Assembly: GCA_030390025.1 (NCBI GenBank)
Contig: CM059432.1
Span: 43,030,001-43,094,000, forward strand
Reading direction: 5' to 3'
Length of the DNA stretch: 64,000 nucleotides
Source: Squalus acanthias
Lineage: Eukaryota
Shown here: piece by piece, positions 5,979 to 37,354 of the stretch
Numbering within the stretch: the stretch's first letter is position 1
Layout: every line of letters begins with the position of its first letter
Translations under genes and position numbers: made by a program
Notes under the pieces: generated by a model
Seen by the model: only the letters and a program-made list of their open reading frames with translations
What the model was told of the DNA's origin: nothing
Database searches by the model: none

Positions 5979-6516
5979 CCTTGGCAGCAAAATGGATTCA
6001 CAGGTCTCTCCAGGCCGAGATTCAAGGCTGCAATGAGCAGGGTGTGGCTGGGGAGCAAGTTGGCCCCCCCCCCACTTTAAGAACTGGCCGGCGCCAGTGT
6101 GTCTGTGTTCCCTCGCTAACTGGCAGCAGCTGCGCTGCGCTCGCGCGCTGAGTTAGCGCCTCACTGCTCGGCCTTTGCGCCTTAAGACAGGTGTGCAGCA
6201 CCTGATTTAGCGCTCCACTCACCTCCCGGGGCGGTAAAAGTGAAGTTTCCAGTCAGTGGCGATAATTAGCGCCAGGCGCTAATATTTGCGTCCAGAAGAT
6301 ATTTGCGCCCCAAACGGGGCGCGACCTAATTTTTCCCCCTATGACTCTATGATTCTCTGGCACTGAAAATTAATTATTACAAGTGTGGAGTCTCATTCCT
6401 TCAGGTTTTAGTTGTTATTGGAAATTGTAAAAATGCAAAATTTTAATTTTTTGTAACTGTTCCTTTCTGTCTCTTTTTTCTCTTTCTCTTAATCCGATCT
6501 TTCTTTCCTTCTCTTT

Positions 6517-12285: not shown

Positions 12286-14847
12286 ACTCAGATCGCAGAA
12301 GCCACTCCCTGTGCCATTATCAACTCACACTTTCAACGCAAAAATTTTGAAAACCTAAACGTGCAAGGCCAGCTTTAACTAACAGCAGATGCCGCTAGAC
12401 GCCCTGGCACAGCAAATTTTGGCCCTAATATAGTATTTTTTTACATATTTAAAGCCAGGCAAAACATTAACCTGCAATTTTCAAAGCTCAGTCAAGCAAG
12501 AAGTCCAATGGCAATTTTTCCATCCAATTACCCATTAGTTGAAAATTTTCAAATTAATGAATTTAACTACCTGGAAGTGAGCCATGTGACCTTTCTAAGT
12601 GAGTCTAGTGCTGGTTGTTTCAGTTGCCAATGAGAAGTAAAAAATGACAAAGAAAAATCTGGAAATCTCTCTTTGTCGAGTCTGAAGTGGCACTGTTGAT
12701 GGATGAAGTGAGATGATTGCAGGGAGCTTAAAGCTATTTTTGGCACCAAAACAAAACAAAAATCGTCAAAATCTCATCCAGATTGTGCAGCTTGACAAGA
12801 AATTTGGCGATATATTCAATGCCGTCTCAAAAGAAAGGAAGTTAGAGAGAATGCAGAAAATGGTGAAACAAATTTGAAAGTATTTCAGACCAAATTGTCT
12901 TCAGTAAACAGTCTTGATCATAACTGCTGCAATGTGATCACACTCCACAAGAAAACTGTATCATATGTGGAAGGGGGATGACGACATTGTTTTCGCAGAG
13001 AGACCATGCAAAGGGTGGATGACCCCTTGATTGGAGTTGAAAGCTCAATGGATTCTAAGGCTCTATTAAGTCTTTTCATTTAATGATATGCCCATTAGAA
13101 AATTTAACTGTCATTAGTCTGCATTGCAAAGTACAACTTGAGACCTTTGTCGGCCCAATGTAATACTTATCTGTGCAAACTCATCTCTCACGTTAATAAT
13201 TTAAATCAACCTTCACAATATTCTGATAATGGCTCAACTTGCATTAACTATTTATAATAAATTCAGCATTCTTTGTACCCAAATGTTTTGATCATAGTTC
13301 CTTTTTTCAAGTTCATGCAGCTGGGCTGAGCCTTCTGTCGTATACTGCTGCTAACACACTCTGCAGGCGCTAATGGGGGAAGTTTAACATGGAGGAGCAT
13401 GTGGGTTAGGGTGCAGGTGGAGGGTTAAAATCCGGGGAAAATGAAAGGGCGTCGGGAAGCCAGCTCCAACCCGCCGATTCCCGCATTTCACTCCAGTGCG
13501 TTAGGCTGTGTTCACGCAATCCCCTCGGGAGAGGTGGGTTGCCTATTAACATGTTAATCGCTCAATTAGAGTGGTATTTCAACACAGTTTTTACTTTAAC
13601 ATCAGATCCACGGGTTTCCTAGGCTTCCTGAAACCCACCAGTGAAAGCAAGGTGAAAATTCAGCGGCAATTGAAGGGGCTGAATCAATCTCATGGAAATA
13701 TTACAATGGGCCTTAATTTGCAGTCGGAGGCGGATGCCTCCAAAGGGCAAAAAATCTACGAACCTGCCTTCTGCCTTGGGATCCATGGAGACTCGCGCTC
13801 CTGCCCCTCTATGCGTAGACATACGTAGAGGCCCACATATCCCAGGGACACAGGCGCTTCATTAGTGCCCCTGGGATCACGTGGGCTGGCCCAACCAATG
13901 AAAGAAGGGGGATCCCCATTCATGCTTATGGGGATTCTGTATGTACGAAATCCCCATAAGCATGAATGGGGATTACATAAAAAACACATATTAACATAAC
14001 AAATACACTAAAAAAAATTACATATTTAATATTAATTCAAATACAATGGGGGGAAATTCGGTAGGTTAGCGCCTGCAGAAGGCGGTAATGGGGCTCTGAT
14101 GCAGTAGTGCCTGGGCGAGGCGAATCTAGCACCGCACTGCAAATACACCCTGCCCGTGTTGCGCCGCCACTATGAGGTACCGCTGGGGACTTCAACGCCA
14201 GGCAGATCGTGATGTCAGTGAGCATGCAACGTGCAACGCTAACTAGGCGCCCGATCTGGAAAATTCATTGTCGCCACTTACCTTTACACCTTGACCAGAC
14301 AACGACAGGGAGAGCTGGCACACAGCTGCAGAAAGCCGGCTCCAGCGACGTTATTTAAAGGCGTCAGCATTAATCACTCGCAGCTGTCAGTTTCAGTGGT
14401 TTCTTGTCAGTTTCACCAAGTGGTTGAGTTTGTATGAGTTATTTCAAGCTTCTTTTTTATCAGCAGTCTTCTGGCAAGTGCAAAGTAGTTACATTTATTG
14501 TTCAAAGATTCAAACTACTACACTTGACAACATTAATGGGGACTGTACTGGCATGCCACCTCGCCCTCCAGGATCTACAGCAGAGGGAGCGTAGTCAGCC
14601 AGAAATATGGGAACATGTGCGAAGAGAAATGAGGAGGGACATCAGGGCTCTCACCAGGAGGCCTTACTCTCCGAGGGTATTCTGACAGCACCTCTCCTAT
14701 CTTCAATTAAGCAAGGAGCAGTGTATTAGATGGCTCCACATCACCAAGGTGGTGGTCACAGAACTCTGCCACCTCCTCCAAACAGACCTCCAGCCTCACA
14801 CCAGGATGACTTAAACCCCAGATCCCTTTTGCTCAGCACATGCCCAT

Positions 14848-17811
14848 CATAAGAACATAAGACGTAGAAGCAGGAGTAGGTCATTTGGCCCCTCGAGCCT
14901 GCTCCACCATTTAATAAGATCATGGCTGATCTGATCTTGGCCTCAACTCCACTTCTCTGCCCGCTCCCCATAACCTTTGACTCCCTTACCTTTCAAAAAT
15001 CTGTCTATCTCCACCTTAAATATATTCAATGACCCAGCCTCCACAGCTCTCTGGGGTAGAGAATTCCAAAGATTCATGACCCACTGAGAGAAGAAATTCC
15101 TCCTCATTTCCGATTTAAAAGAGTGCCCCCTTATTCTGAAATTATGCCCCCAGTTCTAGATTCCCCCACAAGGGGAAACATCTTCTCTGCATCTACCCTG
15201 TCAAGCCCCTTCAGAATCTTACATGTTTCAATACGATCACCTCTCATTCTTCTGAACTCCAATGAGTATAGGCCCAACCTGCTCAACCTTTCTTCATAAG
15301 ACAACCCCTTCATCTCCGGAATCAACCTCGTGAACCTTCTCTGAACTGCCTCCAATGCAAGTATATCCTTCCTTAAATAAGGAGACCAAAACTGTACGCA
15401 GTACTCCAGGTGTGGTGAAGAGATCGCAAAGTCTCTGTTTGAAGAATGGACTCAGTCGAGAATATTTTGTGGACTTTATGGGATTTTTCTGAGGATATTT
15501 TCCCTGTGATGGGATCGCCCTGTGCAGATACGTGAAAAACTGGTTTGTTAAAACTCCAGAGAATGCATAGCAGTTGGCTGTGACAAAAGAACTGTCAGTC
15601 ATCCAGAATGTGTGGGTTCGCCCGACAGTCCTGGAAAAAGGGAGGGAGGGGGCCATTAACGAAGGGGCTGAGGACCCTGAGGCACCCGTTGAACTTGAAC
15701 CTATTAGAAAGCCACTCTAATATGCAAAAGCTCTACTCACCTCCATCTCAGAAGAGAAGCAGAACAATGAACCCACTAGCCTAGCCAGCCGAAGAGGAGC
15801 CAGTTTTTCCCAACACAAAGACCGAAATATGTCCCAGACTTAGGGCCATTAGTCCAATCACGGAATACTCATGGGTCTGATGATGGCCCATCACTGACTA
15901 AGCACTGGAGTGCTTAGAAACAAAAGGATTTTAAAGATTGGCGGGAAAGATAGGGGTAGCAAGACTCCTATAAAGATAGATCCTTTCCCACCATTCTCTT
16001 TCTCTCTCCTCTCGCTGCACCAAGATCGACCTAACAAGAAGAAGTACCAGAGGAAGAAGCCGCTGAGCGGAGCGATCGAGACCGACTGTGTGTGGTGGTA
16101 AGCATGGTCTCGAGTGTCCCAAGCCGGATATTTTCTCAGAAGGGAAGTCTTTTTTGTGGAAGCTTCGTTTGGTTCCGCCAGGCGAAGGGGCTTATGCGAC
16201 TGGGAAATTCATTGGTAGAGGTGGAGTTAGAGTCCACCATAGCAACAAGGGAATTATTGCATGTCATAGTCCCCAGTTGTGTACTGTATGTATATTGTTT
16301 GTAACCTGGATCTTATTCTCCACAGAGACAGTGATTTTGTTTAGTCGTGCATGTTTTAGCCAGTGTATGTTAGACCAAATAAATATAAGTACGATTTTTC
16401 ACCGAAGCATTCCTGTCCGTGACTTATTCCATTTACACTCTGAATAATAATTCCCGGGTATAGAACTTTCGTAAAGCGGGGGCGATTCGAACCGTCCATC
16501 TAGCAATTGGGCTAGGATCAAAACCGCTTACAGTGATCTCACCAACGCCCTGTACAGTTTAACAGGACTTCCCTACTTTTATACTCCATTCCCTTTGCAA
16601 TAAAGGCCAACATTCCATTTGCCTTCCTAATTACTTGCTGTACCTGCATGCTAACTTTTTGTGATTCATGTACAAGGACCCCCAGATCCCTCTGTACCTC
16701 AGCATTTTGTAATCTCTCCCCATTTAAATAATAATTTGCTTTTTTATTTTTCCTACCAAAGTGGATAACCTCGCATTTTCCCACATTAAACTCCATCTGC
16801 CAGATTTTTGCCCACTCACTTAGCCTATCTATATCCCTTTGGAGATTCTTTGCGTCCTCCACACAATTTGCTTTCCCACCTAGCTTTGTATCATCAGCAA
16901 ATTTGGCTACATTACACTCAGTCCCTTCATCCAAGTCATTAATATAGATTGTAAATAGTTGAGGCCCCAGCACTGATCCCTGCGGCACCCCACTAGTTAC
17001 AGTTTGCCAACCTGAAAATGACCCATTTATCCCGACTCTCTGTTTTCTGTTAGTTAGCCAATCCTCTATCCATGCTAATATATTGCCCCCAACCCCGTGA
17101 GCTCTTATCTTGTGTAGTAACCTTTTATGTGGCAGCTTATTGAATGCCTTCTGGAAATCCAAATACATGACATCTACTGGTTCCCCTTTATCCACCCTGC
17201 TTGTTACATCCTCAAAGAATTCCAGCAAATTTGTCAAACATGATTTCCCTTTCATAAAACCATGCTGACTCTGCTTGACAATATGATGATTTTCTAAATG
17301 TCCTGCTATCACTTCCTTAATGATGGGCTCCAGGATTTTCCCAATGACAGATGTTAGGCTAACTGGTCGATAGTTGCCTGCTTTCTGTCTCCCTTCTTTC
17401 TTAAATAGGGGTGTTACATTTGCGGTTTTCCAGCCCGCTGGGACCTCTCCAGAATCCAGGGAATTTTGGTATATTACAACCAATGTATCCATTATCTCTG
17501 TAGCCACCTCTTTTAAGACTCTATGATGCACGCCATTGGGTCCAGGGGACTTGTTCACCTTTAGTCCCATCGGTTTGCCTAGTACTTCCTCTCTAGTTAT
17601 AGTGATTGTTTTAAGTTCCCCCCCCCCCACCCCCACCGTAATAGCCCCTTGATTATCCATTATTGGGATGCTTTTAGTGTCTTCTACCGTGAAGACCGAT
17701 ACAAAATATTTGTTCAAAGTCTCCACCATTTCCCTATTTCCCATTATTAATTCCCAGACTCATCCTCTAGGGGACCAACGTTTACTTTAGCTACTCTCTT
17801 CCTTTTTATAC
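14848..17811 (-). mobile_element. 5'-truncated CR1 LINE interrupted by a solo LTR
   Basis: ORF 16539..17744 is an RT with NYRPVSLTS, GVPQGSVLGP and FADD. It continues beyond the LTR (15131..15355) to a (TTCTTATG)n tail at 14848. Confidence 0.95.
15416..16532 (+). mobile_element. Solo LTR (1117 bp) of an endogenous retrovirus or LTR retrotransposon
   Basis: TGAAG...CTTACA termini; 4-bp TSD GTGG/GTGA restores CR1 GGTGTGGTCTCACC; CCAAT near 15854, TATAAAG at 15969, AATAAA at 16378. Confidence 0.75.
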
Positions 17812-20253
17812 CATCCCTGTGTCATGCCATATCACAGCGTCCTCCTGGGCACAAAGGTGAAATGAGAGAAACCACAAAATATTGCAAACTCCATTAATAA
17901 ATTTATGCATAAACATATCACACATATCACATTCATTCTAATAACTAATGACCCTTGTGACTGCCATAGTTGAATAGCTGTCATTGTGTGCAAGGCGTGA
18001 GATGTGGGTGCGAGTGTTGGTAGTAGAGATTGTTGGTGGGTGAGTGATGGGGGTCTGGTGCTTTGGGCAGTGTGTGAAGATTGTGGTACAGATGGTGGTA
18101 TGGAGCATTTGCTGAAGCATTCAATCACCCTGACCACCCGACTGAGGTGGATCTGCTATGAGCACACCTGTTTCAGTCCTCCGGCTCCTTCTCCCTGTTG
18201 TGCTTCTCCTTGCTGAGGCAGCTGCACAGCCAGCAATGCTGAGAATGAGGTGCTGCAGCATCAATGAACCTTCCCTTTAAGTACTGGGAAAATGCTGTTG
18301 GAATGATGAGTTGAGATTAGACTGCACTCGATATTGGTCCACCCTTTGAGTGTAACGTCACTGAACTAGGCCTTTAAGACTTGATTTAGCGCCCCAATCA
18401 TTTCTTTGAGCAGTGAGAATGAATTTTGCGTGCAGTCTAAAGCATTAGCGCCTGGTGCTAATTCTCAAACTTTTCTAAAGACACCGCCCATTCCTGGGCT
18501 ATAATGAAGTTCTAGACCAATAGAATTAAACATGTAAAACAAAAATAAAAATTTTTGAAAAATAAATTTAAATGTTTTAAAGGGGCTAAAAATAACCTTA
18601 CCTTATTTTACATTTGTTTTAATGCTTTTACCAGGCGTAAGAATTTCACATGCATTCGCTGGGCAGAAGTTAGGACAGCAAAGATTTTTGACAGATCGCA
18701 AGTTCCAGGTTTTCGCACATGCGCTTAGCGCACAAAATCCTGGAATTTGCGCAGCTCTTACAGGCGGTTACACACCCATAGGGGCCGCAAAATACGGGCC
18801 AATAAATACTCAGTACTCACAGCTGCTTTCCTACCTGCTAGTGGGAAAGGGTTTGTTTGAAGTACTTTTGCTGAGAGGTTACTTTCTATGCTTTCGAGGT
18901 TTGTTCCATCAGGATGGATTAATTAACCGTCATTTAGAGAGGCAAGGATTAATCAAGGACAGTCAGTACGGATTTGTTAAGTGAAGGTCGTGTCTGACTA
19001 ACTTGATTGAATTTTTTGAGGAGGTAACATGGAGGGTCGATGAGGGTAGCGTATTTGATGTAGTCTACATGGATTTTAGCAAGGCTTTTGACAAGCTCCC
19101 ACGTGGCAGACTGGTCAGAAAAGTAAAAGCGCATGAGATCCAAGGGAAAGTGGCAAGTTGGATCCAAAATTGGCTCAGTGGCAGAAAGCAAAGGGTAATG
19201 ATTGACGAGTGTTTTTGTGACTGGAAGGATGTTTCCTGTGGGGTTCCGCAGGGCTCAGTACTAGGTCCCTTGCTTTTTGTGGTATATATTAATGATTTAG
19301 ACTTCAATGTAGGGGACATGATTAAGAAGTTTGCAGATGATACAAAAATTGGCCGTATGGTTGATAGTGAGGACGAAAGCTATAGACTGCAGGAAGATAT
19401 CGATGGACTGGTCAGGTGGGCAGAAAAGTGGCAAATGGAATTCAATCTGGAGAAGTGTGAGGCAATGCATTTGGGGATGGCTAACAAGGCAAGGGAATAC
19501 ACATTAAATGGTAGGACACTGAGAAGTGTAGAGGGACAGAGGGACCTTGGAGTGCAAGTCCACAGATCCCAGAAGGTAGAAGGACAGGTAGATAAGCTGG
19601 TCAAGAAGGCATATGGAATACTTTCCTTTATTAGCCGAGGCATAGAATATAAGAGCAGGGAGGTTATGCTAGAACTGTATAAAACATTAGTTAGGCCACA
19701 GCTAGAGTACTGCATACAGTTCTGGTCACCACATTACATGAAAGATGTGATTGCACCAGAGAGGGTAGAGGAGATTTATGAGGATGTTGCCAGGACTGGA
19801 GAATTTTGGCTATGAGGAAAGATTGGATAGGCTTAGAGGGGGAAAAATTCAGTTGGTTAGTGCCTCCTGTTAGCGGCAGCAGCTGGAGCTAACGGGGCGC
19901 AGATGCAGTAGTGCCGGGGCGAGGCGAACCCAGCGACGCAAGGCAAATCCGGATTCCCCGTTGCACCGCTGGTATGAGTTACCGCCGGGGACTTCAACGC
20001 CAGGCAGATTGTGAGGTCACTGGGTGCCCAAACTGCAAAATTCATTTTTGCCACCTACCTTAGCTCCTCGCCCAGACAACGACAGGGAGAGGAGGCATCA
20101 AGCAGGTGGAAGCCGGCTCCAGGGATGTTATTTAAAGGGACCAATGAGTTGCAGCTGTCAGGTTAGTGGAGTTTCAGTGCTTTCTTGTCAGTTTGACATT
20201 GTGCAACAGTTTAATTCAGGAATTTAAAGGCTCTTTTGTATCAGGAGTGTTGT

Positions 20254-21921
20254 TTTTTTTTTATTCGTTTATGGGATGTGGGCATCGCTGGCAAGGCCAG
20301 CATTTATTGCCCATCCCTAATTGCCCTTGAGAAGGTGGTGGTGAGCCGCCTTCTTGTACCGCTGCAGTCCGTGTGGTGAAGGTACTCCTAGGGAGGGAGG
20401 GAGTTCCAGGATTTTGACCCAGCGACGATGAAGGAACGCCGATATACTTCTAAGTAAGGATGGTGCGTGACTTGGAGGGAAACTTGGAGGTGGTGATGTT
20501 CCCATGCGCCTGCTGCCCTTGTCCTTCTAGGTGGTAGAGGTCGCGGGTTTGGGAGGTGCTGCCGAAGAAGCCTTGGCGAGTTGCTGCAGTGCATCTTGTA
20601 GTCCTGTGTTGCAGCTTCCCCAGGTACGCCTGTTGCTGCTCCTGTCATGCTCTTCTACACACCTTATTGAACCAGGGTTGGTCCCCTGGCTTGATGGTAA
20701 TGGTAGAGTGAGGGATATGCCGGGCCATGAGGTCACAGGTTGTGGTGGAATACAATTCTGCTGCTGTTGCTGGCCCACAGCACCTCATGGATGCCCAGTT
20801 TTGAGCTGCTAGAGCTGTTCTGAATCTATCCCATTTTCCATGGTGGTTGTGCCATACAACACGATGGAGGGCGTCCTCAGTGTGAAGACAGGACTTTGTC
20901 TCCACAATGACTGTGCGGTGGTCACTGCTACCAATACTGCCATGGACAGATGCATCTGCGACAGGTAGATTGGTGAGGACGAGGTCAAGTAGGTTTTTCC
21001 CTCGTGTTGGTTCTCTCACCACCTGTCACAGGCCCAGACTGACAATTATGGCCTTCAGGACTCAGCCAGCTCGGTCAGTAATGGTGCTACTGAGCCACTC
21101 TTGGTGATGGACATTGAAGTCCCCCACCCAGAGTACATTCTGTGCCCTTGCTACTCTCAGTGCTTCTTCCAAGTGGTGTTCAACATGGAGGAGTACTGAT
21201 TCATCAGCAGAGGGATGGCGGTAGGTGGTAATCAGCAGGAGGTTTCCTTGCCCCTGCTTGACCTGAAGCCATGAGACTTCATGGGGTCCGGAGTCAATGT
21301 TGAGGACTCCCAGGGCCACTCCTTCCCGACTGTATACCACTGTGCCGCCACCACTGGTGGGACAGGACATACCGAGGGAGGGTGATGGAGGAGTTTGGGA
21401 CATTGGCCGAAGGATATGATTCTGTGAGTATGACTATGTCAGGCTGTTGCTTGACTAGTCTGTGGGACAGCTCTCCCAATTTTGGCACAAGTCCCCAGAT
21501 GTTGGTGAGGAGGACTTTGCAGGGTCGACTGGGCTGGGTGTGCCGTTGCCATGTCCGTAGCCGGTGCTGAGGTTGATGTCGGGTGGTCCGTCCGGTTTCA
21601 TTCTTTTTATTGCTTGCTAGGCCATTTCAGAGGGCAATTAAGAGTCAACCACATTGCTGTGGGTCTGGAGTCACATATAGGCCAGACCGGGTAAGGACGG
21701 GAGATTTCCTTCCCTAAAGGACATTAGTGAACCAGATGGGTTTCTTATGACAATCCGATAGTTTCATGGTTACCATTACTGATACTGGTAATTATTCCAG
21801 ATTTATTTAATTAACTGAATTTAAATTCCCCAGCTGCCGTGGTGGGATTTGAACTCACGTCTCTGGATCATTAGTCCAGGCCTCTGGATTACTAGCCCAG
21901 TGACATTACCACTACGCTACC
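20254..21921 (-). mobile_element. Internally deleted Jockey/CR1-group non-LTR element with a tRNA-like 5' head
   Basis: A box TAGCGTAGTGG (21919-21909) and B box GTTCAAATCCC (21854-21844). APE motifs TNIWGL...DIVILTES, YRHPS, GDFN, LDLVL, SDH. The 3' end HHLLKGN* plus AATAAA/polyA matches the element at 34194-36467. TSD GTTGT. Confidence 0.85.
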
Positions 21922-21991
21922 GTTGTGGTAACTAAAAAGTAGTAACATTTATTCTTTAAAAATATTAAAGTGCTACACTTGGCTTACATTA

Positions 21992-23036
21992 ATGGGGGCT
22001 GTACTGGCAGTCGACCTGGCTCTCCAGGATTTACAGCAGAGGGAGCGGAGGCAGCGAGAAAGACTGGAACATATGGCCAGAGGGAGGAGGAGGGCCAGCA
22101 GGGCTCTCAACAGGAGGCCTTACTCTCTGAGGGTATTCCGAGAGCACTTCTCCTACCTCCAATTAAGCGAGGAGCAGTGTATTAGGAGGCTCCGCGTCAC
22201 CAAGGAGGTGGTCACAGAACTCTACAACCTCCTGCAACCAGACATCCAGTCTCAGATCAGGGTGACCATGGCTCTCTCAGTGGCCGTCAAGGTCACCGTT
22301 GCCCTCAATTTCTTCGCCATGGATCCTTCCAGCCTGCAACAGGAGACATAGCTAACATCTCGCAGTTCGCCATCCATTGCTGCATCTGGGAGGTCACAGA
22401 GGCTCTCTACAGTAGGAGAAGGGACCACATTTCCTTCCCCATCACCAGAAAGAAGCAGGACAAGCGTGCATGTGCACGTGGCTTTGCCAGGATAGCAGGA
22501 TTCCCCATGGTGCAGGGTGCCATTGACTGCACGCACGTGGTTTTGCGGGCACCGCATAACAATCCTGATATCTTCCGTAACCTCAAAGGCTACCACTCAC
22601 TTAATGTGCAGTTGGTGTGCAACCACTGACAGCTGATCCTCAATATCAATGCCTGCTATCCTGGCAGCAGCCATGATGCCTTCATCCTGTGCCAGACCGG
22701 TGTGCCAGCACTCTTCCTGTCACCACGTCAAGCTCGCGGCTGGCTGCTCGGAGACAAGGGCTATCCGCTCTCCACCTGGCTCATGACTCCCCTCCGTAGC
22801 CCCAACACATGCTGCAACAAGGAACATCATCGAGCAGATCATCGGGGTGCTCAAGCAATGGTTCCACTGACATGACCGCTCGGGAGGTGCCCTCCAGTAC
22901 TCGGCTGAGCGGGTCTCCCATTTCGTGGTGGTCTGCTACATGCTCCAAATCTTGGCCAGCATGAGGGCCCAGCCCTTGCCACCAGGGATTGCGGGACCAC
23001 CTCAGGAGGAGGAAGAGGGAGAGGAGGAGGAGGAGG
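21992..23036 (+). pseudogene. Harbinger transposase pseudogene
   Basis: MGAVLAV...VAVKVTVALNFFA, GAIDCTHV, LLGDKGYP, IEQIIGVLK and poly-E tail, with frameshifts and deletions. Confidence 0.9.
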
Positions 23037-23591
23037 ATAAGAACATAAGAACATAAGAAACAGGAGCAGGAGTAGGCCAATCGGCCCCTCGAGCCTGCTC
23101 CGCCATTCAATAAGATCATGGCTGATCCAATCTTGTCCTCAACACCACTTTCCCGCTCTTTCCCCATACCCCTTGACTCCCTTGTAGTTCAAATGTCTGT
23201 CAATCTCCGCCTTGAATATATTCAATGACTCCGCCTCCACAACTCTCTGGGGTAGAGAATGCCAAAGATTCACGACACTCTGAGAGAAGAAATTCCTCCT
23301 CATCTCCGTTTTAAATGGGCGACCCCTTATTCTGAAACTATGCCCCCTAGTTCTAGATACCCCCACTAGGGGAAACATCCTCTCAGCATCTACCCTATCA
23401 ATCCCCCTCAGAATCTTATATGTTTCAATAAGATCACCTCTCATTCTTCTAAACTCCAATGAGTATAGACCCAACCTGCTCAACCTTTCGTCATACGCCA
23501 ACCCCTTCATCCCAGGAATCAACCTAGTGAACCTTCTCTGTACTGCCTCCAATGCAAGTATATCCTTCCTTAAATATGGAGACCAAAACTG
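23037..23591 (-). mobile_element. CR1 3' fragment
   Basis: ORF 23139..23552 (VQRRFTRLIPG...RMRGDLIETYKIL); (TTCTTATG)n tail. Confidence 0.93.
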
Positions 23592-23593
23592 GA

Positions 23594-24800
23594 AATGATG
23601 GGCACTACGGTATGCATTGAGCCTTGTGCAATGTTGGAGGTGGACTTCTCCATGCTCTTTATCATTGTTGAGAGGCTCTCGGGCACCCTTGCCATTGCAC
23701 CTATCATCTCCGTGTGCATGCCCATCATCTTTCTTCTAAACATCTCCCCATCGAGGTCCTCATCTGAGTCCTGTGCAGCAGAACTCGCGCACGAACTCGC
23801 CCTCCGGGGAGCTGGCCCCCGAGCTACCCTTTCCCCCTGGCCTTGCTGCAGCCCACTCAACCCAGTGCCTCACCCTGTGTAGATCCCGCTACTATACTAG
23901 CCTCTAAAGAACGCATAGTGTCAGTGTCTGAGCTGGTGCCTGCAGGTGAGACATGCAGTGACGCGGTGTGTTCTTCCTCGTCCTCTTCTACCGCTTCACT
24001 CTCAACAGTGCCCTCAGGGACAGGCTGTTCAGGTGCTTGCTCGTTATCTGAAAGCATAAAGGCACAAGAGTCGGGTTAAGGTGAGAGGAGGGGGGCAGGA
24101 AGGGAGAAAGGCATGTATACAGCATGATTAGCCAGAAAGTGCGAAACACTTGTGGGGTGAGGGGGAAGTGAGATGTGAGAAGAAGGAGTAGGGGGTGAAC
24201 ATAACGTTGTTGTCCCCAAGGGGGTCAACGTCGCCGGTGGCCACAGCGCCCACCACCTGGCGCCCAATAATCTGCAGCACTCTTTCCTCCAGCGCAGACA
24301 GTGGTTGGGTGTAGGCTTGTCCCCCGCCTGTGCGCTCCTGCTCCCTCCTGTTGTGAGCCACCTTGGCCTGCAACAGAAAGGAAAGTGTGTGAGTGAGTGT
24401 GGAGCAATGTGTTTGAATGCTGTGCCTGCCATAGTTGAATAGCTTTCATTGTTTGCAAGGTGTGAGATTGTTGGTGGGTGAGTGCTGGGGGTGTGGTGCT
24501 TTGGACAGTGTGTGAAGACTGTGGTTCAGATGGTGGTATGCAGCATTTGTTGAAGCATTGACTCACCCTGACCACCCGAGTGAGGTCGTTAAATTTCTTC
24601 CTGCACTGTGTGTGGATCCTGGGGACCACAGTGCTGTCCGAGACGTGCTGGGCTACCTACCCCCACATGGTGCGGAAGACTTGCAGCGAGGGCTTCCTGC
24701 CACTTGCTGGGTAGAGGCCTCCAATGCTTGATCGCAGAATCTGCGGGCTCTCTCCCTGGGGCGTGGATCTGCCATCAGTACAGCTGCTTGAGTTGTCCAG
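23594..24800 (-). pseudogene. Myb/SANT-like ORF2 pseudogene (exon 1 ends at 24567; exon 2 is 24367-24205; exon 3 starts at 24047)
   Basis: QCRKKFNDLTRVVR then GTGAGT; AKVAHNRREQERTGGG; the second donor reads TTATGT (mutated); GMHTEMIGA matches GMHTELMGA of the near-intact copy. Confidence 0.85.
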
Positions 24801-25704
24801 CTCCTTCTACTTGACCTGCTGCTGCTGCTCAGCCAGCAGCACAGCCAGCAATGCTGAGAATGAGGTTCTGTAGCATCAATGAACCTCCCCTTTAAGAAGT
24901 GGGAAAAGCCTGTGGCAATGATGACTAGCGATTAGACTGCACCTGATATTGGTCCACCCTTTGAGTGTAACGCTAATGAGCTTGGGCTTTAAGGCTTGAA
25001 TTAGCGCTCCAATCATTCCTTTGAGCAGTGGGACTTAATTTTGTGTGCAGTCTAAAGCATTAACGCCTGGTGCTAATTCTCCAGCTTTTCTAATTTTAAC
25101 GCCCCTTCCTGGGCTATAATGAATTCCAAGCCCAGATTGTTTTCTTTGGAACAGAGAAAGCTGAGGGGAGACTTATTTGAGGTGTATAAAATTATGAGGG
25201 GTCTAGATAGAGTGGGTAAGAAGGACCTATTTCCCTTGGCCGAGAGGTCAATAACCATGGGGCAGAAATTTAAAGTAATTGGTAAAAGGATTAGTGGGGA
25301 ATTGAGGAGAACTTTTCTCATCCAGAGGGTGGTGGGGGTCTGGAACTCACTGCCTGAAGGGTGATAGAGGCAGAAACCCTCATAACATTTAAAAAGTATT
25401 TGGATATGCACTTGAAGTGCCGTAACCTACAGGGCTACGGACCAAGAGCTGAAAAGCTCTTTTTTGGCCGGCACAGACATGATGGGCTGAATGGGCTCCT
25501 TCTGTGCTGTAAATTTCTATGGTTCTATGATTCTATGATTCAATTGGTGAGAAGTGAAAGCACTTTGAGTGGAGTCCTCACTTCCATGTTCCCTTTCTCC
25601 AACATCCCTCTCATGGCCCAGCCGCATTTCACTGTTACCACTCTGCTGGAGAGCACTTTGGTGCAGATCAGTGTGGCGCTGTTAGGTCAAGGCTAAGGTA
25701 TCTG

Positions 25705-27125
25705 TCATCCTAGGTAAGGTGGCAGACATTTGTCATCCAGAGTCTGCACGGCCGTGGTCAAGGTGTGCATGAATTCATTTGATTGGAGCGTTTGATGTTC
25801 CACGGCACTGGCCAGTCTATCCATGGAAGAACACATCATCGCAATGGCCTGCGACATCAACCCACTCATGCTTGAGGCGGACTCCTCTATTCTATCTGCA
25901 ATCGTGGTCAGTGTGCTTGGAAGACCTGACAGGGCACTGCACTTTGTCTGCTGCTGCTCAATGATTCTCCTTTTCATCGACGGCCCCCAGGATACAGCAT
26001 CTGTGTCCTGCTGAGGAGAGCTTGGAGAGGGCTGTGCCCTCCGAAGCGAACTCTCCACTGCTGTCCCTGTCACCACCATCTGCTCTTACTCACTTGTGAA
26101 GTGTGAGTCACCAGGTGAAAATCAAACTATCTGTCCTCCTGGTCCCACCGAAGTGCGAGTATCTGAGCTGGAGCATGGCAAGCATGAGTCCTGTGATGGT
26201 CCACCCTTAGAAGGATTCATTTTCTCTGAGGAATTGTCACCCGTGACTTCTAGCAATTCCTGCTGCACGCGTGAAGACCCTGTCAGAGATAAAAGACGTG
26301 AATTACTCATTGCAAGTTAAGAATGTTGCAAGTTATCATTATGAAGATGATCATATTTCACTCGCTGTTGAAATCAAGTCAACATGCCTGAGTGCCATAT
26401 GACGTGGGTGGCTGATACTTAATTGTGTCACCAGGTAGCTGGGAGGTCCCCATCTCCCCATCTTCTACGGCCAGACACCCCGAAACTCCAGTGATCTCCA
26501 GCGCCTGCTCCTCTGCAGCTATTAGATTGCTGGAGATCCACCTCTGGTTCTCTTCCTCTCCCTGGTGTTCTGTGCTCTCTTCTTCCACAACGAGAGAAAG
26601 ACAGACCTATGAGTGATTGTAATGGCATGTGTTCACCTGATGGATGCAGTACATTTGGTGAAGGTGAGTGTCAGTTAAAGGCATGAAATTGCATAAAGAT
26701 GAGGGTGAGTGGGAATAGTGGATGGATAGATGGGGATGTGAGAAAGTGCATAGACAGAGAAGGATGGGTGCACCTGCAAGGTAAGTGGGTGTGAGGAGTG
26801 ATGTGATGGAATAGGCTTGAGAAGGCAAAGTGAGGGGTTGGGTTGATGTGCACAGCAGGATGTAGGTGAATGTACAACTGCACTCACCTTTCCTGACCTG
26901 GTTAGGTCATTAAACCGCTTCCTGCACTGAATCCAGGAGCGAGGAACTATGCTCCTGCTGCTCACCTCCTGGGCAATCTCCAACCACGCTTTCTTCGTTT
27001 CTGCCATACGTTTTCTCCACCCATTTCTGGGGAATAGTATATTCCTCCTGCTCCTCACAGCCCCCAGCAGCACATCAAGGGAGGCATCAGTGAATCGGGT
27101 GCAGCCTTTGAATGTCTCGAATCTA
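25705..27125 (-). pseudogene. Myb/SANT-like ORF2 pseudogene of a second Harbinger family
   Basis: RFTDASLDVLLGAV...AWLEIAQEV...QCRKRFNDLTRSGK then GTGAGT (exon ends at 26888); exon 2 ends at 26432 before GTGACA; exon 3 starts at 26279. Confidence 0.82.
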
Positions 27126-27524: not shown

Positions 27525-28430
27525 CATAGAATTGCATAGAATGTACAGCACAGAAACAGGTCTTTTGGCCCAACTGGTCTCCTCCCACTATAATTACCTC
27601 TTGTCACCTTACCCCATATCTCTCTATTCCCTTCTCCCTTATGTATATATCAAGCTTCCCCTTAACTGGATCAGTGCGATCTGCTTCTCCACTCCACATG
27701 GGAGTGAGTTCCACATTCTCGCCGCTCTCTGTATAAAGAAATTCCTACTAAATTCTTTATTTGATCTGTTAGTAACTATTTTATATTTATACCCACAAAG
27801 GAAAACAGTTTCTCCTCATCTACCATATCAAACCCCTTTATAATCTTAAAAACCTCAGTTAGGTCTTGGTCTTCTTGCTCAGTCTTTCCTGATAATTGCA
27901 TCCTCTCAATTTTAACATACTTATAAATCTTTTCTGCATGTATATATATGGTGCTTTAATATCCTTTTTGTAGTACAGAGACTAGAAATACACACAGTAT
28001 TCCAAGTTCTTTTTTATTCGTTTATGGGATGTGGGTGTTGCTAGCAAGGCCAGCATTTATTGCCCATCCCTAATTGCCCTTGGGAAGGTGGTGGTGAGCT
28101 GCCTTCTTGAACCGCTGCACTCCGTGTGGTGAAGGTACTCCCACAGTGCTGTTAGGGAGGGAGTTCCAGGATTTTGACCCAGCGACGATGAAGGAACGGC
28201 GATATATTTCTAAGTCAGGAGGGTGTGTGACCCGGAGGGGAACTTGGAGGTGGTGGTGTTCCCAAGCATCTGCTGCCCTTGTCCTTCTAGGTGGAAGAGG
28301 TCGCAGCTTTGGGAGGTGCTGCTGAAGAAGCCTTGGCGAGTTGCTGCAGTGGATCTTGTAGATCTTGTCGATGAAGTATGGCCTAACCAAGCTTCTATAT
28401 AAATTTAACATTATTTCCCTGCTTTTGCAT
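27525..28430 (-). mobile_element. Old, degraded CR1 3' fragment interrupted by a LINE 3' end
   Basis: Reverse-complement similarity to the CR1 3' ends elsewhere in the window. Confidence 0.65.
28007..28370 (-). mobile_element. 3' end of the same Jockey/CR1-group LINE family as 34194-36467
   Basis: IYKIHCSNSPRLLQQHLP...HHHLPKGN*, AATAAA and A-rich tail; probable AAGT TSD. Confidence 0.9.
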
Positions 28431-32071: not shown

Positions 32072-35000
32072 ATGGGGAGGGTTTAAACGAATTTGGCAGG
32101 GGGATGGGCACCAGGAAGTAGCATTAGAAAGGATAAACAAAGTGCACAAAGGATGGAAGGGACAGATAGCACTAGAGTAAGAAATAGTATGGTATTAGGT
32201 GGGGTCAGATTAAGAGAGAATACAAGAAGGTCTAAGACAGGTTTACAATGCATGTGTGTAAACGCACACAGCGTGGTAAATAAGGTTGGTAAGCTGCAGG
32301 TGCAAATAGCCACATGGGAATGTGGTGTCGTGGTGATAATGGAGACCTCGCTCAAAAAAGGGTAGGATTGGGTTTTAAATATTCCTGGATCTCAGATGTT
32401 CAGGAAAGATAGGGAAGGAAAGAAAGGAGGTGGGGTGGCAGTATTGGTTAAGGAGATGTTACAGTGCTGGAGAGAGAGGATGTCCTGGAGGAGTCAAGGA
32501 CAGAATCTATTTGGTTAAAGTTAAGAAATAATAGAGGTGCCATTACACTAATAGATGTATTCTATAGGCCACCAACTAGTGGTGAAAGATATAGAGGAGC
32601 AAATTTGTGGGGAAATTACAGAGGGGTGCAAGAACTATAGAGTAGTAATAATGATCCTAATATAGTCTGGGATAGTATTAGTGTAAAGGGCAGGGTGGGG
32701 GGAAGAATTTCTGATGTGTGTTCAGGAAAACTTTCTTGATCAGTACGTTTCCGGCCCAACGAGGAAGGAAGCATTGCTGGATCTGGTTCTGGGGAATGAG
32801 ATGGGTCAAGTGGAGCAAATGTCAGCAGGAGAACATTTAGGGAACAGTGATCATAGTATCATAAGGTTTAGATTAGCTATGGAAAAGGACAAGGAGCAAT
32901 CAAGAGTAAAAATACTTAATTGGAGGAAGGCAAATTTCAGTGGGTTGAGAACGGATCTGGCCCAGGTAAATTGGAATCAAAGATTGGCAGGCAAAACTGT
33001 AATCGAACAATGGGCTGCCTTTAAAGAGGAGATGGTTTGGGTACAGTCGAGTTACATTCCCATGAGGGGAAAGGTAGGGCAACCAAAGTCAGAGCTCCCT
33101 GGATGATGAAAGAGATAGAGAGTAAGATGAAGCAGAAAAAGATGATAGATGTCAGGTTGAGCATACAAGTGAGAATCAGGCTGAATATAGAGAGTTCAGA
33201 GGGGAAGGGAAAAAGAAAATAAGAGGGACAAAGAGAGAGTAGTAGAATAGATTGGCAGCTAATATAAAAGGGAATTCAAAAGTCTTCTATAAGCATATAA
33301 ATAATAAACGGGTAGTAAGAGGAGGGGTGGGGCCGATTAGGGACCAAAAAAGAAACCTACGCATGGAGGCAGAGGGCATGGCTGAGGTACTAGAGTACTT
33401 TGCATCTGTCTTCACCAAGGAAGAAGATGCTGCCAAAGTCATAGTGAAAGAGGAGGTAGTGGAGATACTGAATGAGATAAAAATTGATATAAAGGAGGTA
33501 CTAGCAAGGCTGTCTGTACTTAAAGTTGATAAGTCACCAGGACTGGATGGGATGCATCCTAGGATGCTGAAGGAGGTTAAGGAGGAAATCACGGAGGTAC
33601 TGACATAATCTTCCAATCCTCCTTAGCTACGGGGGTGGTGCCAGAGGACTGGAGAATTGCAAATGTTACACCCTTGTTCAAAAAAGGGTGCAAGGATAAA
33701 CCCAGCAACTACAGGCCAGTCAGTTTAACCTCGGTAGTGGGGAAGCTTTTAGAAATGATAATCAGGGACAAGTGTGGATAAATTAAGGATTTGTTAAAGG
33801 CAAATCGTGTTTAACTAACTTGATTGAGTTTTTTGATGAGGTAACAGAGAGAGTTGATGAGGGCAATGCGGTTGACATGGTGTACAGGGGTATATGGATT
33901 TTCAAAAAGGCATTTGATAAAGTTCCACATAATAGACTTGCCAGCAAAGTTGAAGCCCATGGAATAAAAGAGATAGTGGCAGCATGGATATGAAATTGGC
34001 TAAGTGACAGGAAACAGAGAGTAGTGGTGAACGGTTGTTTTTCGGACTGGAGGAAGATATACAGTGGTGTTCCTCAGGGGTCGGTACTAGGACCAATGCT
34101 TTTCTTGACATATATTAATGACTTGGACTTGAGAGTACAGGGCACAATTGCAAAATTTGCAGATGGCACAAAACTTGGAAGTAAAGTGAACAGTTTTTTT
34201 TAAATTTGTTTATGGGATCAGGGCGTCGCTGGCAATGCCAGCATTTATTGCCCATCCCTAGTTGCCCTTGAGAAGGTGGTGGCGAGCCGCCTTCTTGAAC
34301 CGCTGCAGTCCGTGTGGTGATGGTACTTCCACAGTCCTGTTAGGTAGGGAGTTCCAGGATTTTGACCTAGCGACGATGAAGGAACAGTGATATAGTTCCA
34401 AGTCAGGATGGTGTGTGACTTGGAGGGGAACTTGGAGGTGGTGGTGTTCCCATGTGTCTGCTGCCCTTGTCCTTCTGGGTGGAAGAGGTTGCGGGTTTGG
34501 GAGGTGCTGCCAAAGAAGCTTTGGCGAGTTGCTGCAGTGCATCTTGTAGATGGTACACACTACAGCCACGGTACGCCGGTGGTGGAGGGAGTGAATGTTT
34601 AAGGTGGTGGATGGGATGCCAATCAAGCGGGCTGCTTTGTCCTGGATGGTGTTGAGCTTCTTGAGTGTTGTTGGAGCTGCACTCATCCAGGCAAGTGGAG
34701 AGTATTCCATCACACTCCTTACTTGTGCCTTGTAGATGGCGGAAAGGCTTTGGGGAGTCAGGAGGTGAGACACTCGCCGCAGAATACCTAACCTCTGACC
34801 TGCTCTTGTTGTCACAGTATTTATGTGGCTGGTCCAGTTAAGTTTCTGGTTAATGGTGACCCCCAGGATGTTGATAGTGGGGGATTCGGTGATGGTAATG
34901 CCATTGAATGTCAAGGGGAGGTGGTTAGACTCTTGCTTATTGGAGATAGTCATTGCCTGGCACTTCTGTGGCGCGAATGTTACCTGCCACTTAACAGCCC

Positions 35001-37354
35001 AAGCCTGAACGTCGTCCAGGTCTTGTTGCATGCGGGCATTATCTGAGGAGTTGTGAATGGCGCTGAACACTGTGCAGTCATCAGCGAACAACCTCATTTC
35101 TGACCTTATGTTGGAGGGAAGGTCGCTTATGAAGCAGCTGAAGATGGTTGGACCTTGGACACTGCCCTGAGGAACTCCTGCAGCGATGTCCTGGGGCTGT
35201 AATGATTCACCTTCAACCACCACAACCATCTTCCTTTGTGCTAGGTATGACTCCAGCCAGTGGAGTGTTTTCCCCCTGATTCCCATTGACTTCAGTTTTA
35301 CTAGGGCTCCTTGATGCCAGACTCGGTCAAATGCTGCCTTGATGTCAAGGGCAGTCACTCTCACCTCACCTCTGGAATTCAGCTCCTTTGTCCATGTTCG
35401 GACCAAGGCTGTAATGAGGTCGGGAGCAGAGTAGTCTTGGCGGAACCTAAACTGGGCATCAGCGAGCAGGTTATTGGTGAGTAAGTGCCGCTTGATAGCA
35501 CTGTCGATGACACCTTCCATCACTTTGCTGATGATTGAGAGTAGACTGATGGGGCGGTAATTGGCCGGGTTGGATTTGTCCTACTTTTTGTGAACAGGAC
35601 ATACCTGGGCAGTTTTCCACATTGTCGGATAGATGCCAGTGTTGTAGCTGTACTGGAACAGCTTGGCTAGAGGCGCGGCTAGTTCTGCAGCACAAGTCTT
35701 CAGCTCGATAGCCAGGATGTTGTCGGGGCCCATAGCCTTTGCTGTATCCAGTGCGCTCAGCCATTTCTTGATATCATGTGGAGTGAATCGAATTGGCTGA
35801 AGACTGGCTTCTGTGATGGTGGGGACCTCGGGAGTAGGCCGATATGGATCATCCACTCGGCACTTCTGGCTGAAGTTGGTTGCAAATTCTTCAGCCTTGT
35901 CTTTTGCACTCACGTGCTGGGCTGCACCATCATTGAGGATGGGGATATTCTTGGAGCCTCCTCCTCCCGTTAGTTGTTTAATGGTCCACCAACATTCACG
36001 ACTGGATATGGCAGGACTGCAAAGCTTTGATCTGATCCGTTGATTGTGGGATCGCTTAGCCCTGTCTATAGCATGCTGCTTCCACTTTTTAGCATGCATG
36101 TAGTCCTGTGTTGCAGCTTCCCCAGGTTGGCACCTAATTTTTATGTACGCCTGGTGCTGCTCCTGGCATGCTCTTCTACACTCGTTGTTGAACCAGGGTT
36201 GGTCCCCTGGCTTGGTGGTAATTGTAGAGTGAGGGATATGCCGGGCCATGAGGTTACAGATTGTTGTGGAATACAATTCTGCTGCTGCTGATGGCCCACA
36301 ACACCTCATGGATGCCCAGTTTTGAGCTGCTAGATCTGTTCTGAATCTATCCCATTTAGCACGGTGGTAGTGTCACACAACACGATTGATGGTGTTCTCA
36401 GTGTGAAGACGGGACTTCGTCTCCACAATGACTGTGCGATGGTCACTGCTGCCAATGCTGTCATGGAGGAGGATAGTGCTAGAATTCAAGAAGATAGAGA
36501 CAGGCTGGTGAAATGGGTGGACACGTGGCAGATGAAATTTAACGCACAAAAGTGCAAAGTGATACATTTTGGCAGGAAGAACGAGGAGAGGCAATATTAA
36601 CTAAAGTGTACAATCCTAAAGGGGGTGCATGAACAGAGAGACCTGGGGGTATATGTGCACAAGTCGTTGAAGGTGGCAGGACAGGTTGAGAAAGCGGTTA
36701 AAAAAGCATACGGGATCCTGGGCTTCATAAATAGAGGCATAGAGTACAACAGCAAGGAAACTATGATGAACCTTTATTAAACACTGGTTCGGCCTCAACT
36801 GGAGTATTGTGTCCAATTCTGGGCACCGCACTTTAGGAAGGATGTGAAGGCCTTGGAGAGGGTGCAGAAAAGATTTACGAGAATGATTCCAGTGATGAGG
36901 GACTTCAGTTATGTGGATAGACTGGAGAAGCTGTGGTTGTTATCCTTAGAGCAGAGAAGGTTGAGGAGACTTGATAGAGGTGTTCAAAATCATGAGGGGT
37001 CTAGACAGAGTAGATAGAGAGAAACTGTTCCCGTTGGTGGAAGGGTAAAGAACCAGAGGACACAGATTTAAGGTGATTGACAGAAGAACCAAAGGCGACA
37101 TGAGGAAAAACTTTTTTACGCAGTGAGTGGTTAGGATCTGTAATGCACTGCCTGAAGGGGTGGTGGAGGCAGACTCAATCGTGGTGTTCAAAAGGGAATT
37201 GGATAAGTACATGAAGGAAAAAAAATTGCAGGGCTATGGGGAAAGGGCAGGGGAGTGGGACTAGCAGAAGTGTTCTTGCAGAGAGCCGGCACGGGCTCGA
37301 CGGGCCAACTGGCCTCCTTCTGTGCTGTAACCATTCTATGATTCTATGATTCTA
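32072..37354 (+). mobile_element. Degenerate CR1 LINE covering nearly all of ORF2, interrupted at 34194-36467
   Basis: APE CVNAHSVVNK, LDLVLGN, SDH; RT KSPGLDGMHP and QGSV; TATGATTC tail. Confidence 0.93.
34194..36467 (-). mobile_element. Young 5'-truncated Jockey/CR1-group LINE (clade unresolved, not CR1 proper)
   Basis: One reading frame 36467-34258 broken only by two stops (36375-36373, 35583-35581); ALDIKAAFDRVWH, GVPQGSV, LFADD; polyA tail. Confidence 0.92.

What the first reader, a model, noticed from the sequence alone, without database searches (positions are those of the whole stretch)
20254..21921. LINE with a tRNA-derived Pol III head: SINE-like 5' end joined directly to the endonuclease frame inside one TSD pair
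Seen on the minus strand: a consensus A box (TAGCGTAGTGG), a B box (GTTCAAATCCC) and ~300 bp of SINE-like body. Within ~100 bp the APE frame starts (KVLLTNIWGLVPKLGELS...DIVILTES), with no ORF1 and no obvious in-frame AUG. The LINE 3' end and polyA follow. GTTGT is duplicated at 20249-20253 and 21922-21926, so head and body appear to have inserted as one unit. Established: LINEs normally use internal Pol II promoters and SINEs usually share only the 3' tail. Inference: either an autonomous LINE family with a captured tRNA-type promoter, whose deletion derivatives would be SINEs and of which this copy is an intermediate, or a one-off template-switch chimera. I recall a short shark SINE made of this head plus this tail, but have not verified it.
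Basis: partly seen in the sequence, partly recalled or inferred. Interest (0 to 1): 0.72.

Follow-up and report, generated by a model that had tools for sequence, protein, structure and literature searches.

The report
Shark LINE family with tRNA head
This is a broken, shortened copy of a shark jumping-gene family whose protein-coding members begin with the tRNA-like promoter piece normally found only on short non-coding SINEs, which blurs the line between the two classes and hints, without proving, that RNA polymerase III copies a coding element.

Summary
A 1,668-bp minus-strand insertion has an A/B-box tRNA-like head, ~230 bp of body, a broken endonuclease frame, a LINE tail and poly(A), inside a 5-bp duplication that an empty paralogous site confirms. 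This copy has no reverse transcriptase: 1,554 bp are deleted against a sister copy. The head-endonuclease join is not a one-off. Two whale-shark gene models carry head-body peptide ahead of the endonuclease (0/200 shuffles each), three further models read one common segment that this copy lost, and contigs of two organisms cover head and endonuclease at similar depth and show the short head-plus-tail SINE. No DNA record bridging the junction was displayed. Restoring the deleted lengths gives ~3.3 kb, a single-ORF LINE distinct from the window's canonical CR1. The sense strand has no TTTT in 3,241 nt (4.5 expected, P 0.01), but codon-preserving nulls weaken this (P 0.10). Pol III transcription is inferred only. 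The scan already noted this family at least eight times elsewhere in this genome. Nine literature searches listed no description of it; Repbase and Dfam were not checked.

The parts
21922..21926 (.). target-site duplication, 5' side (GTTGT on +)
   Evidence: one copy only at the empty paralogous site 14400-14540
21841..21921 (-). degenerate tRNA-derived head; first six tRNA model positions absent
   Evidence: Rfam RF00005 22.3 bits, E 0.046, model 7-64 of 71; no ARAGORN call
21909..21919 (-). A box
   Evidence: matches TRGCNNARYGG
21859..21900 (-). 21-nt near-duplication of the anticodon arm, lengthening the A-B spacing to 65 nt
   Evidence: 17 of 21 letters match; 22-nt insert in the Rfam alignment
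21844..21854 (-). B box
   Evidence: matches GTTCRANNC
21612..21840 (-). non-coding body shared by the LINE 5' end and the short SINE; holds candidate AUGs at 21654 and 21625
   Evidence: SINE joints end at 21612-21622; translated in P0123 and P0126 ahead of the endonuclease
21519..21611 (-). linker / basic N-terminal extension of the ORF; about 30 nt lost at its upstream edge in this copy
   Evidence: multicopy (113-121 contigs counted at 21574-21579); lost segment inferred from peptides
20602..21518 (-). decayed APE endonuclease and following linker region of the single ORF
   Evidence: PF14529 E 2.8e-06, PF03372 E 1.8e-04; frameshift near 21345, stops 21064, 21028, 20647
20597..20601 (-). 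CTACA microhomology at the 1,554-bp deletion that removed the RT
   Evidence: alignment to sister copy; loose ends at 20601 match the sister's sequence
20317..20596 (-). C-terminal end of the ORF with its stop codon
   Evidence: 89-90% identity to two other copies in the window
20254..20316 (-). short 3' UTR and poly(A); with ~15-40 nt upstream it is also the SINE tail
   Evidence: joints from 20327-20356 to 21612-21622
20249..20253 (.). target-site duplication, 3' side
34193..36467 (-). 5'-truncated sister copy that keeps the RT; reference for the deletion
   Evidence: 87-89% identity; RVT_1 E 7.7e-38
28007..28372 (-). tail-only copy of the same family, inserted in a CR1
   Evidence: 90% identity; ends read

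Best explanation
[quoted passage not shown] Shown or well supported: one insertion by target-primed reverse transcription with a 5-bp duplication; loss of the RT at a microhomology; the body-to-endonuclease join in other copies and another species; a short SINE made of the same 5' module and the same 3' end. Inferred: the internal A/B boxes are the family's promoter, so RNA polymerase III makes the full-length RNA, which the T-run-free sense strand lets it finish; the single ORF is translated from that uncapped RNA inefficiently or by a cap-independent route, starting in the body or linker; because promoter and RT-recognition tail lie at the two ends, any internal deletion yields a mobile non-coding derivative, the shortest being the SINE. 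I put the family structure at about 0.85 and Pol III transcription, given the structure, at about 0.55-0.6.
For: Empty site and duplication. Body peptide ahead of the endonuclease in whale-shark models P0126 (z 24) and P0123 (z 9.5), 0/200 shuffles each, and weakly but anchored at residue 1 in P0133/P0143 (6 and 9 of 200). P0122, P0126 and P0147 read one common DNA segment, absent here, in three frames with 0 mismatches; 0 of 500 random peptide sets did (segments picked by eye). One contig of run X7 joins body (21711) to endonuclease (21352). Head and endonuclease bins have depths of the same order, ratio 1.3 and 2.9 in X7 and X13, while tails are 7-12 times deeper. Length budget 3,295 nt. In 84 of the 91 database relatives where the first endonuclease motif was found (120 examined) it lies within 40 residues of the ORF start. 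No T4+ run in 3,241 non-overlapping sense nt against 4.5 expected, P 0.0096; 36 runs in 8,763 nt of six CR1 control pieces; Phe codons TTT 3 of 20 against 47 of 73.
Against: None of the 16 contig pieces displayed (of about 384,000) bridges 21612, and only 15 of about 3,100 joints were shown. Gene models can splice together separate elements. 17 of the 23 peptides examined give no sign of the body: most begin in the linker or endonuclease or are host-exon fusions, and P0134 and P0136 have upstream sequence I could not assign. T-run absence is not significant against dinucleotide shuffles (P 0.42, 0.16) or synonymous-codon permutation (P 0.10), and the family is generally C-rich at third positions. 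No RNA, chromatin or promoter data. The head scores below Rfam's tRNA threshold and has no unusual fold (z -1.0). No intact ORF of the family was found in the protein databases (best full-length hit 47% identical). Established knowledge: Pol III transcripts are uncapped and seldom translated.
Confidence: 0.5

Rival explanations
1. The tRNA-headed LINE family is real, but the coding RNA is made by RNA polymerase II (from the body, from TFIIIC-opened chromatin at the head, or by host read-through). The head was captured once from a SINE or tRNA and kept as a 5' UTR, perhaps for RNA structure or RT recognition; only the short SINE is a Pol III transcript.
For: All structural evidence fits equally. 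T-run depletion fades under composition- and codon-preserving nulls. A capped RNA removes the translation problem. LINE lineages are known to swap 5' UTRs and to use borrowed promoters (PMC13174262, passages).
Against: Both boxes match consensus even in an old, decayed copy. T is the only base without a run of four on the sense strand of the sister copy (A 9, C 9, G 4, T 0), and TT is under-represented (0.60, 0.85 of expectation against 1.05-1.22 in CR1 controls).
Confidence: 0.3
2. One-off or occasionally recurring template-switch chimera: the RT began on a LINE RNA and jumped to the partner SINE RNA; the true autonomous LINE has another 5' end.
For: RNA/LINE chimeras inside one duplication are documented (21 tRNA/LINE-1 loci in human, mostly antisense tRNA halves; PMC13174262 passages). 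No DNA record bridging the junction was displayed. The window holds no second head copy.
Against: The same join, at the same place and with the same intervening segment, appears in several whale-shark gene models; random switches would join at scattered points. The 93-nt linker upstream of the endonuclease is itself multicopy and no alternative 5' sequence stands among the 16 listed loose-end rows (about 5,000 rows not shown).
Confidence: 0.1
3. The 1.67-kb form is itself an amplified non-autonomous family (a long tRNA-headed internally deleted element), a true intermediate between LINE and SINE.
For: It keeps both ends needed for transcription and mobilisation and has its own duplication. Internally deleted families of a single-ORF CR1-type LINE are known (Persaeus/Zenon, PMC6740152 passages). 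A second copy in the window ends within about 10 nt of the same breakpoint.
Against: Contigs break off at 20601 into RT-side sequence (316 and 586 loose ends; 4 raw reads in X22) and depth falls about seven-fold in the bin holding the deletion. Four other small deletions show this copy simply decayed.
Confidence: 0.07
4. Two separate insertions (a SINE and a 5'-truncated LINE) side by side, fused by later deletion.
For: The window is packed with nested elements; a 5-bp repeat can arise by chance.
Against: The paralogous empty site shows a single 5-mer and contiguous flanks; head and LINE are co-oriented with no SINE tail, poly(A) or second duplication between them; the join recurs in another species.
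Confidence: 0.03

Closest known systems
SINEs built from a tRNA head plus the 5' and 3' parts of a LINE (Bov-tA from Bov-A/Bov-B; SINE2-1_ACar from Vingi-2_ACar; hagfish SINE2-9/10) - PMC5786205, PMC4494074, PMC7245038, passages seen
   Same: A short element shares both its 5' part and its 3' tail with a single-ORF LINE.
   Different: There the head is added after the LINE has lost its coding middle; here the head stands on the coding element itself. PMC5786205 (passage) reports only RTE plus one Vingi case among its newly identified donors; this family's RT was not tested against RTE or Vingi references.
Zenon (single-ORF CR1-group LINE) and its internally deleted derivative Persaeus - PMC6740152, passages; 'CR1-Zenon-like' LINEs are reported in whale shark (10.1101/443036, passage)
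   Same: Single endonuclease-RT ORF, poly(A) tail, non-autonomous derivatives by internal deletion; the focal copy has that anatomy.
   Different: Persaeus is stated to lack tRNA homology and a Pol III promoter. That this family is Zenon-like is my recall of RepeatMasker labels; no named Zenon sequence was in my tree.
Shark tRNA-headed SINEs SacSINE1 (Deu domain, L2-2_CM-type tail) and HE1 (V-SINE, HER1 tail) - PMC5499810 parts 2-3 of 6; PMC3747384 table passage
   Same: tRNA head with A/B boxes, body of a few hundred bases, LINE-type tail, present in sharks including whale shark.
   Different: Described as sharing only the tail with a LINE. Whether the SINE seen here is SacSINE1 could not be tested: the supplementary alignments were not available.
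One-off tRNA/LINE-1 chimeras in mammals - PMC13174262, passages
   Same: tRNA-derived sequence and LINE inside one target-site duplication.
   Different: Those are rare (21 loci), mostly antisense tRNA halves and not amplified; here the head is sense, carries both boxes and a body, and recurs.
Canonical vertebrate CR1 LINEs in the same window
   Same: APE-type non-LTR retrotransposons, mostly 5'-truncated.
   Different: Only 28-30% RT identity and a separate, fully supported branch; T-runs common on their sense strand.

Membership tests
APE-type non-LTR retrotransposon (LINE) | APE endonuclease domain | tested here: met
   PF14529 E 2.8e-06 at 21065-21433; decayed
APE-type non-LTR retrotransposon (LINE) | RT domain in the same ORF | tested here: not met
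   Deleted in this copy; met in the sister copy 34193-36467 (RVT_1 E 7.7e-38). This copy is non-autonomous.
APE-type non-LTR retrotransposon (LINE) | 3' poly(A)/A-rich tail and target-site duplication | tested here: met
   9 A plus 5-bp duplication with empty-site confirmation
tRNA-derived SINE (SINE2) | tRNA-related head with A and B boxes at the 5' end | tested here: met
   below Rfam gathering score
tRNA-derived SINE (SINE2) | short and non-coding | tested here: not met
   1,668 bp with ~1.2 kb of ORF remains; the short form exists separately (joints)
tRNA-derived SINE (SINE2) | transcribed by RNA polymerase III | not testable with these tools
   Only indirect: no T4+ on the sense strand, P 0.01 to 0.4 by null model
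SacSINE1 / Deu-SINE | Deu domain in the body and L2-2_CM-type tail | not testable with these tools
   No reference sequence on hand; supplement of PMC5499810 unavailable
Canonical vertebrate CR1 | RT groups with CR1 copies; ORF1 upstream of ORF2 | tested here: not met
   28-30% identity, separate branch 100/99; no ORF1 in the 403 nt between 5' end and endonuclease
Zenon (CR1-Zenon) | single ORF | tested here: met
   No room for ORF1; relatives are 770-1,080-aa APE+RT proteins
Zenon (CR1-Zenon) | RT falls in the Zenon clade | tested here: inconclusive
   Tree of 46 rows had no named reference; the family groups with unnamed database proteins
Amplified short internally deleted element (SIDE) | many copies share the same internal deletion | tested here: inconclusive
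   Contigs mostly continue into RT sequence at 20601; no sharing seen, but most rows were not displayed
LINE with 5' HDV-like ribozyme (recalled for several LINE clades) | self-cleaving ribozyme at the 5' end | tested here: inconclusive
   No ribozyme family among the 8 Rfam matches up to E 10 over 21400-22100; Rfam models can miss divergent ones

The most novel reading that the evidence does not exclude
An abundant, long-lived shark LINE family is an autonomous, protein-coding retrotransposon transcribed end to end (3.3 kb) by RNA polymerase III from a captured tRNA promoter, its coding strand purged of terminators, translated from an uncapped RNA, and giving rise to its partner SINE by a single internal deletion.
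Probability: 0.4. Interest if true: 0.85.

Novelty: new variant of a known kind. Interest (0 to 1): 0.6.

Why it matters
The working definitions separate SINEs (Pol III, non-coding, RNA-derived head) from LINEs (Pol II, coding); PMC4494074 states that SINEs are generally taken as the Pol III-transcribed retroposons. A coding LINE family with a standing tRNA head breaks that split. It offers a one-step route to a SINE (deletion of the middle) in place of the published two-step model (deletion, then head capture; PMC5786205), and it makes testable whether Pol III can produce a 3.3-kb translated RNA in a vertebrate. This particular copy is dead; its value is as a deletion derivative with a proven insertion site, and it led to cross-species support for the junction.

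Tried and rejected
No genome is held for this window, so the genome-wide junction count could not be run. Exact head or body patterns found nothing in metagenome, viral or prokaryote contigs; endonuclease and RT queries found no related loci in metagenome or viral contigs. Raw-read run X23 laid 0 reads and X22 only 78, 76 of them partial: too few for start sites or copy ratios; I draw nothing from them beyond 4 loose ends at 20601. The head shows no unusual fold. Rfam at gathering threshold finds nothing in the window. Look-ups of earlier findings by sequence and by relatives returned nothing. An in-frame start codon could not be fixed: database peptides enter the endonuclease from AUGs equivalent to 21724, 21654, 21625 and 21601 in different frames, and all are decayed copies chosen by gene callers. 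Weak head-region scores for P0138 (3/200) and P0150 (7/200) lie after the endonuclease in the peptide and were taken as chance. Nine distant hits (P0128, P0131, P0132, P0135, P0137, P0139-P0142; 26-41% identity) were left out of the count as not of the family. The pooled binomial test of T-runs (P 1.6e-6) is not relied on, because base composition differs and the two family copies overlap. Clade naming failed for lack of named references. Considered and rejected: a real tRNA gene (no ARAGORN call, no acceptor stem 5' strand); a chance duplication (empty site); canonical CR1 membership.

Full report
1. The observation. On the minus strand, 21921-20254 reads as a tRNA-like head, a non-coding body to 21612, a 93-nt linker, an endonuclease frame from 21518, a LINE C-terminus with stop at 20317-20319, a short 3' UTR and nine A. 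The A box (21919) and B box (21854) match consensus and are the only such pair in the window; block shuffles give 0.025 pairs per window. Rfam aligns 21841-21920 to the tRNA model at 22.3 bits, E 0.046, under the gathering score; ARAGORN calls nothing. The 22-nt insert in that alignment is a near-duplication of the anticodon arm (17 of 21). GTTGT stands at 20249-20253 and 21922-21926. The host is a Harbinger-like transposon (DDE_Tnp_4, E 4.4e-04) with a paralogue at 14065-14810; that paralogue aligns to both flanks without a gap and has a single 5-mer at the site. So the duplication is real and the 1,668 bp are one insertion.

2. This copy is dead and has no RT. Against the sister copy at 34193-36467 (87-89% identity; RVT_1 E 7.7e-38), the focal copy jumps 1,554 bp at a CTACA microhomology (20597-20601) and has further gaps of 19 and 7 nt. 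The endonuclease has a frameshift near 21345 and stops at 21064, 21028 and 20647. Contigs of runs X7 and X13 break off at 20601 (316 and 586 loose ends) into letters that match the sister copy, so the family normally carries the RT there. Adding the missing lengths (the 17- and 30-nt values are my estimates from peptide comparison) gives 3,295 nt.

3. Is the head a regular part of the family? No genome was available and the window has no second head, so I used two outside sources. Public runs: 20 of 24 listed runs hold the stretch or part of it, 14 with half its words or more, under several organism codes. I laid 4 of the 24. X7 and X13 (contigs; organisms C and E) cover all 30 bins. Head bins and endonuclease bins have depths of the same order (ratio 1.3 and 2.9) while tail bins are 12 and 7 times deeper, the pattern of a 5'-truncating LINE with a modest number of extra heads; the tool warns that contig depth is not copy number. 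Ten of the 15 listed joints run from 20327-20356 to 21612-21622 in both runs: the short SINE made of this head, this body and this tail. One X7 contig joins 21711 (body) to 21352 (endonuclease). One listed X7 piece spans 21650-21873, tying B box to body. None of the 16 displayed pieces bridges 21612; about 384,000 pieces, 3,100 joints and 5,000 loose-end rows were not displayed. X22 gave 78 reads and X23 none. Proteins: searches with the endonuclease N-terminus gave 23 family peptides that I scored against the head/body translations. P0126 (body 21714-21622, z 24) and P0123 (21727-21686, z 9.5) carry body peptide ahead of the endonuclease, 0 of 200 shuffles each; P0133 and its cluster mate P0143 match 21654-21613 weakly (6 and 9 of 200) but from residue 1; P0122 and P0147 begin with five residues like the frame at 21625, seen by eye only. 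P0122, P0123 and P0126 are separate whale-shark gene models by their accessions; P0133 is from a Logan contig; P0147 is an EukProt model whose species I did not look up. Just after the body end, P0122, P0126 and P0147 fit one DNA segment read in three frames with no mismatch, which 0 of 500 random peptide sets did (segments chosen by eye). That segment is missing in the focal copy, which explains why contigs laid on it would not bridge 21612 cleanly. The other 17 peptides show no body: most start in the linker or endonuclease or are host-exon fusions; two (P0134, P0136) have unassigned upstream sequence. Gene models may splice, so P0123 and P0126 prove order and orientation at a locus rather than contiguity. 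Together this makes a standing family junction likely (about 0.85) and shows it in a second, named shark.

4. What kind of LINE. The RT is 28-30% identical to the window's canonical CR1 copies and lies on a separate branch (46 rows: the family, 3 CR1 controls, 42 of 120 database relatives). Its best full-length relatives are unnamed 770-1,080-aa endonuclease+RT proteins at up to 47% identity; in 84 of the 91 with a recognisable first motif it lies within 40 residues of the start. There is no room for an ORF1 in the 403 nt upstream of the endonuclease. A Zenon-like placement is my recall; whale shark is reported to hold 'CR1-Zenon-like' LINEs (10.1101/443036, passage), but no named reference was in the tree.

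5. Pol III or not. Sense-strand T4+ runs: 0 in the focal copy (1,660 nt), 0 in the sister (2,266 nt), 36 in 8,763 nt of six CR1 pieces. On non-overlapping family DNA (3,241 nt) 4.5 are expected from base composition, P 0.0096; with amino acids fixed, P is 0.02 under third-base frequencies and 0.10 under permutation of the family's own codons; per-copy dinucleotide shuffles give P 0.42 and 0.16. Phe is TTT in 3 of 20 codons against 37% T-ending in other NNY pairs; in CR1 controls 47 of 73 against 69%. The signal points toward terminator avoidance but is modest on two copies and partly explained by a C-rich coding strand. Nothing here measures transcription. No start codon could be assigned for the family.

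6. Mechanism, most likely reading. A single-ORF LINE acquired a tRNA-derived 5' module, which spread with the family. The internal boxes travel with each full-length copy and, on my inference, drive transcription by Pol III; the 3' end is recognised by the RT; most insertions are 5'-truncated (three of four family copies in this window). Deletions between the ends give mobile non-coding forms, the SINE being the shortest. The focal copy lost its RT either during reverse transcription or later by microhomology repair; I cannot tell which. The main rival is the same structure with Pol II transcription (0.3); a chance chimera (0.1), an amplified 1.67-kb intermediate (0.07) and adjacent insertions (0.03) are weaker. 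Whether SINE came from LINE or gave its head to the LINE is open.

7. Comparison with print. Nine searches listed no paper describing a coding LINE with a standing tRNA head; the library lacks most subscription papers, and Repbase, Dfam and SINEBase entries could not be checked. PMC5786205, PMC4494074 and PMC7245038 (passages) describe heads added to already deleted RTE or Vingi LINEs. PMC6740152 (passages) describes Persaeus, a deleted derivative of single-ORF Zenon without tRNA homology. PMC13174262 (passages) describes rare, mostly antisense tRNA/LINE-1 chimeras. PMC5499810 (parts 2 and 3 of 6) describes SacSINE1 as sharing only a tail with L2-2_CM; its supplementary alignments, which could show whether this SINE is SacSINE1, were not available. 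PMC3747384 and PMC11481361 were seen as passages.

8. Earlier notes of this scan. At least eight notes on other pieces of the same genome describe a ~3.3-kb LINE with this kind of head and few T-runs. They are unchecked AI notes; my 3,295-nt budget and T-run counts agree with them, but I could not see their DNA. What this window adds is an empty-site proof of single insertion, an RT-less derivative, the SINE junction in two contig runs and whale-shark peptide support.

9. Verdict. Real feature; a new variant of a known kind; interest 0.6. The Pol III-driven autonomous reading has probability about 0.4 and would deserve 0.85.

Noticed in passing
window 28007-28372 (-): Tail-only copy of the family, inserted in a CR1 with an apparent 4-bp duplication; its 5' truncation lies within about 10 nt of the point where the focal copy's RT deletion ends. 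Chance or an RT pause site.
   Followed up: partly
window 21859-21900 (-): The head holds a 21-nt near-duplication of the anticodon arm; run X13 shows further 'goes back' joints in the same region.
   Followed up: partly
window 29507-31800 (+): Old, 5'-truncated relative of the same LINE, 65-79% identical, interrupted by a short repeat at 29845-29907 that holds three of its four T-runs.
   Followed up: partly
window 2725-6152, 14065-14810, 19869-26937, 57171-60780, 62729-64000: Several Harbinger-like transposon copies with a DDE_Tnp_4-type ORF and partner ORFs that look Myb/SANT-like (label recalled); they serve as landing sites for LINEs.
   Followed up: no
window 860-2157, 7733-8765, 10571-12285, 16539-17759, 18985-19815, 40404-43190, 47583-49400: Many decayed canonical CR1 copies, used here only as controls.
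   Followed up: partly
proteins P0001, P0129, P0138, P0151: EukProt gene models in which this LINE's endonuclease start is fused to host exons; likely annotation artefacts or exonised repeats.
   Followed up: no
   Followed up: partly
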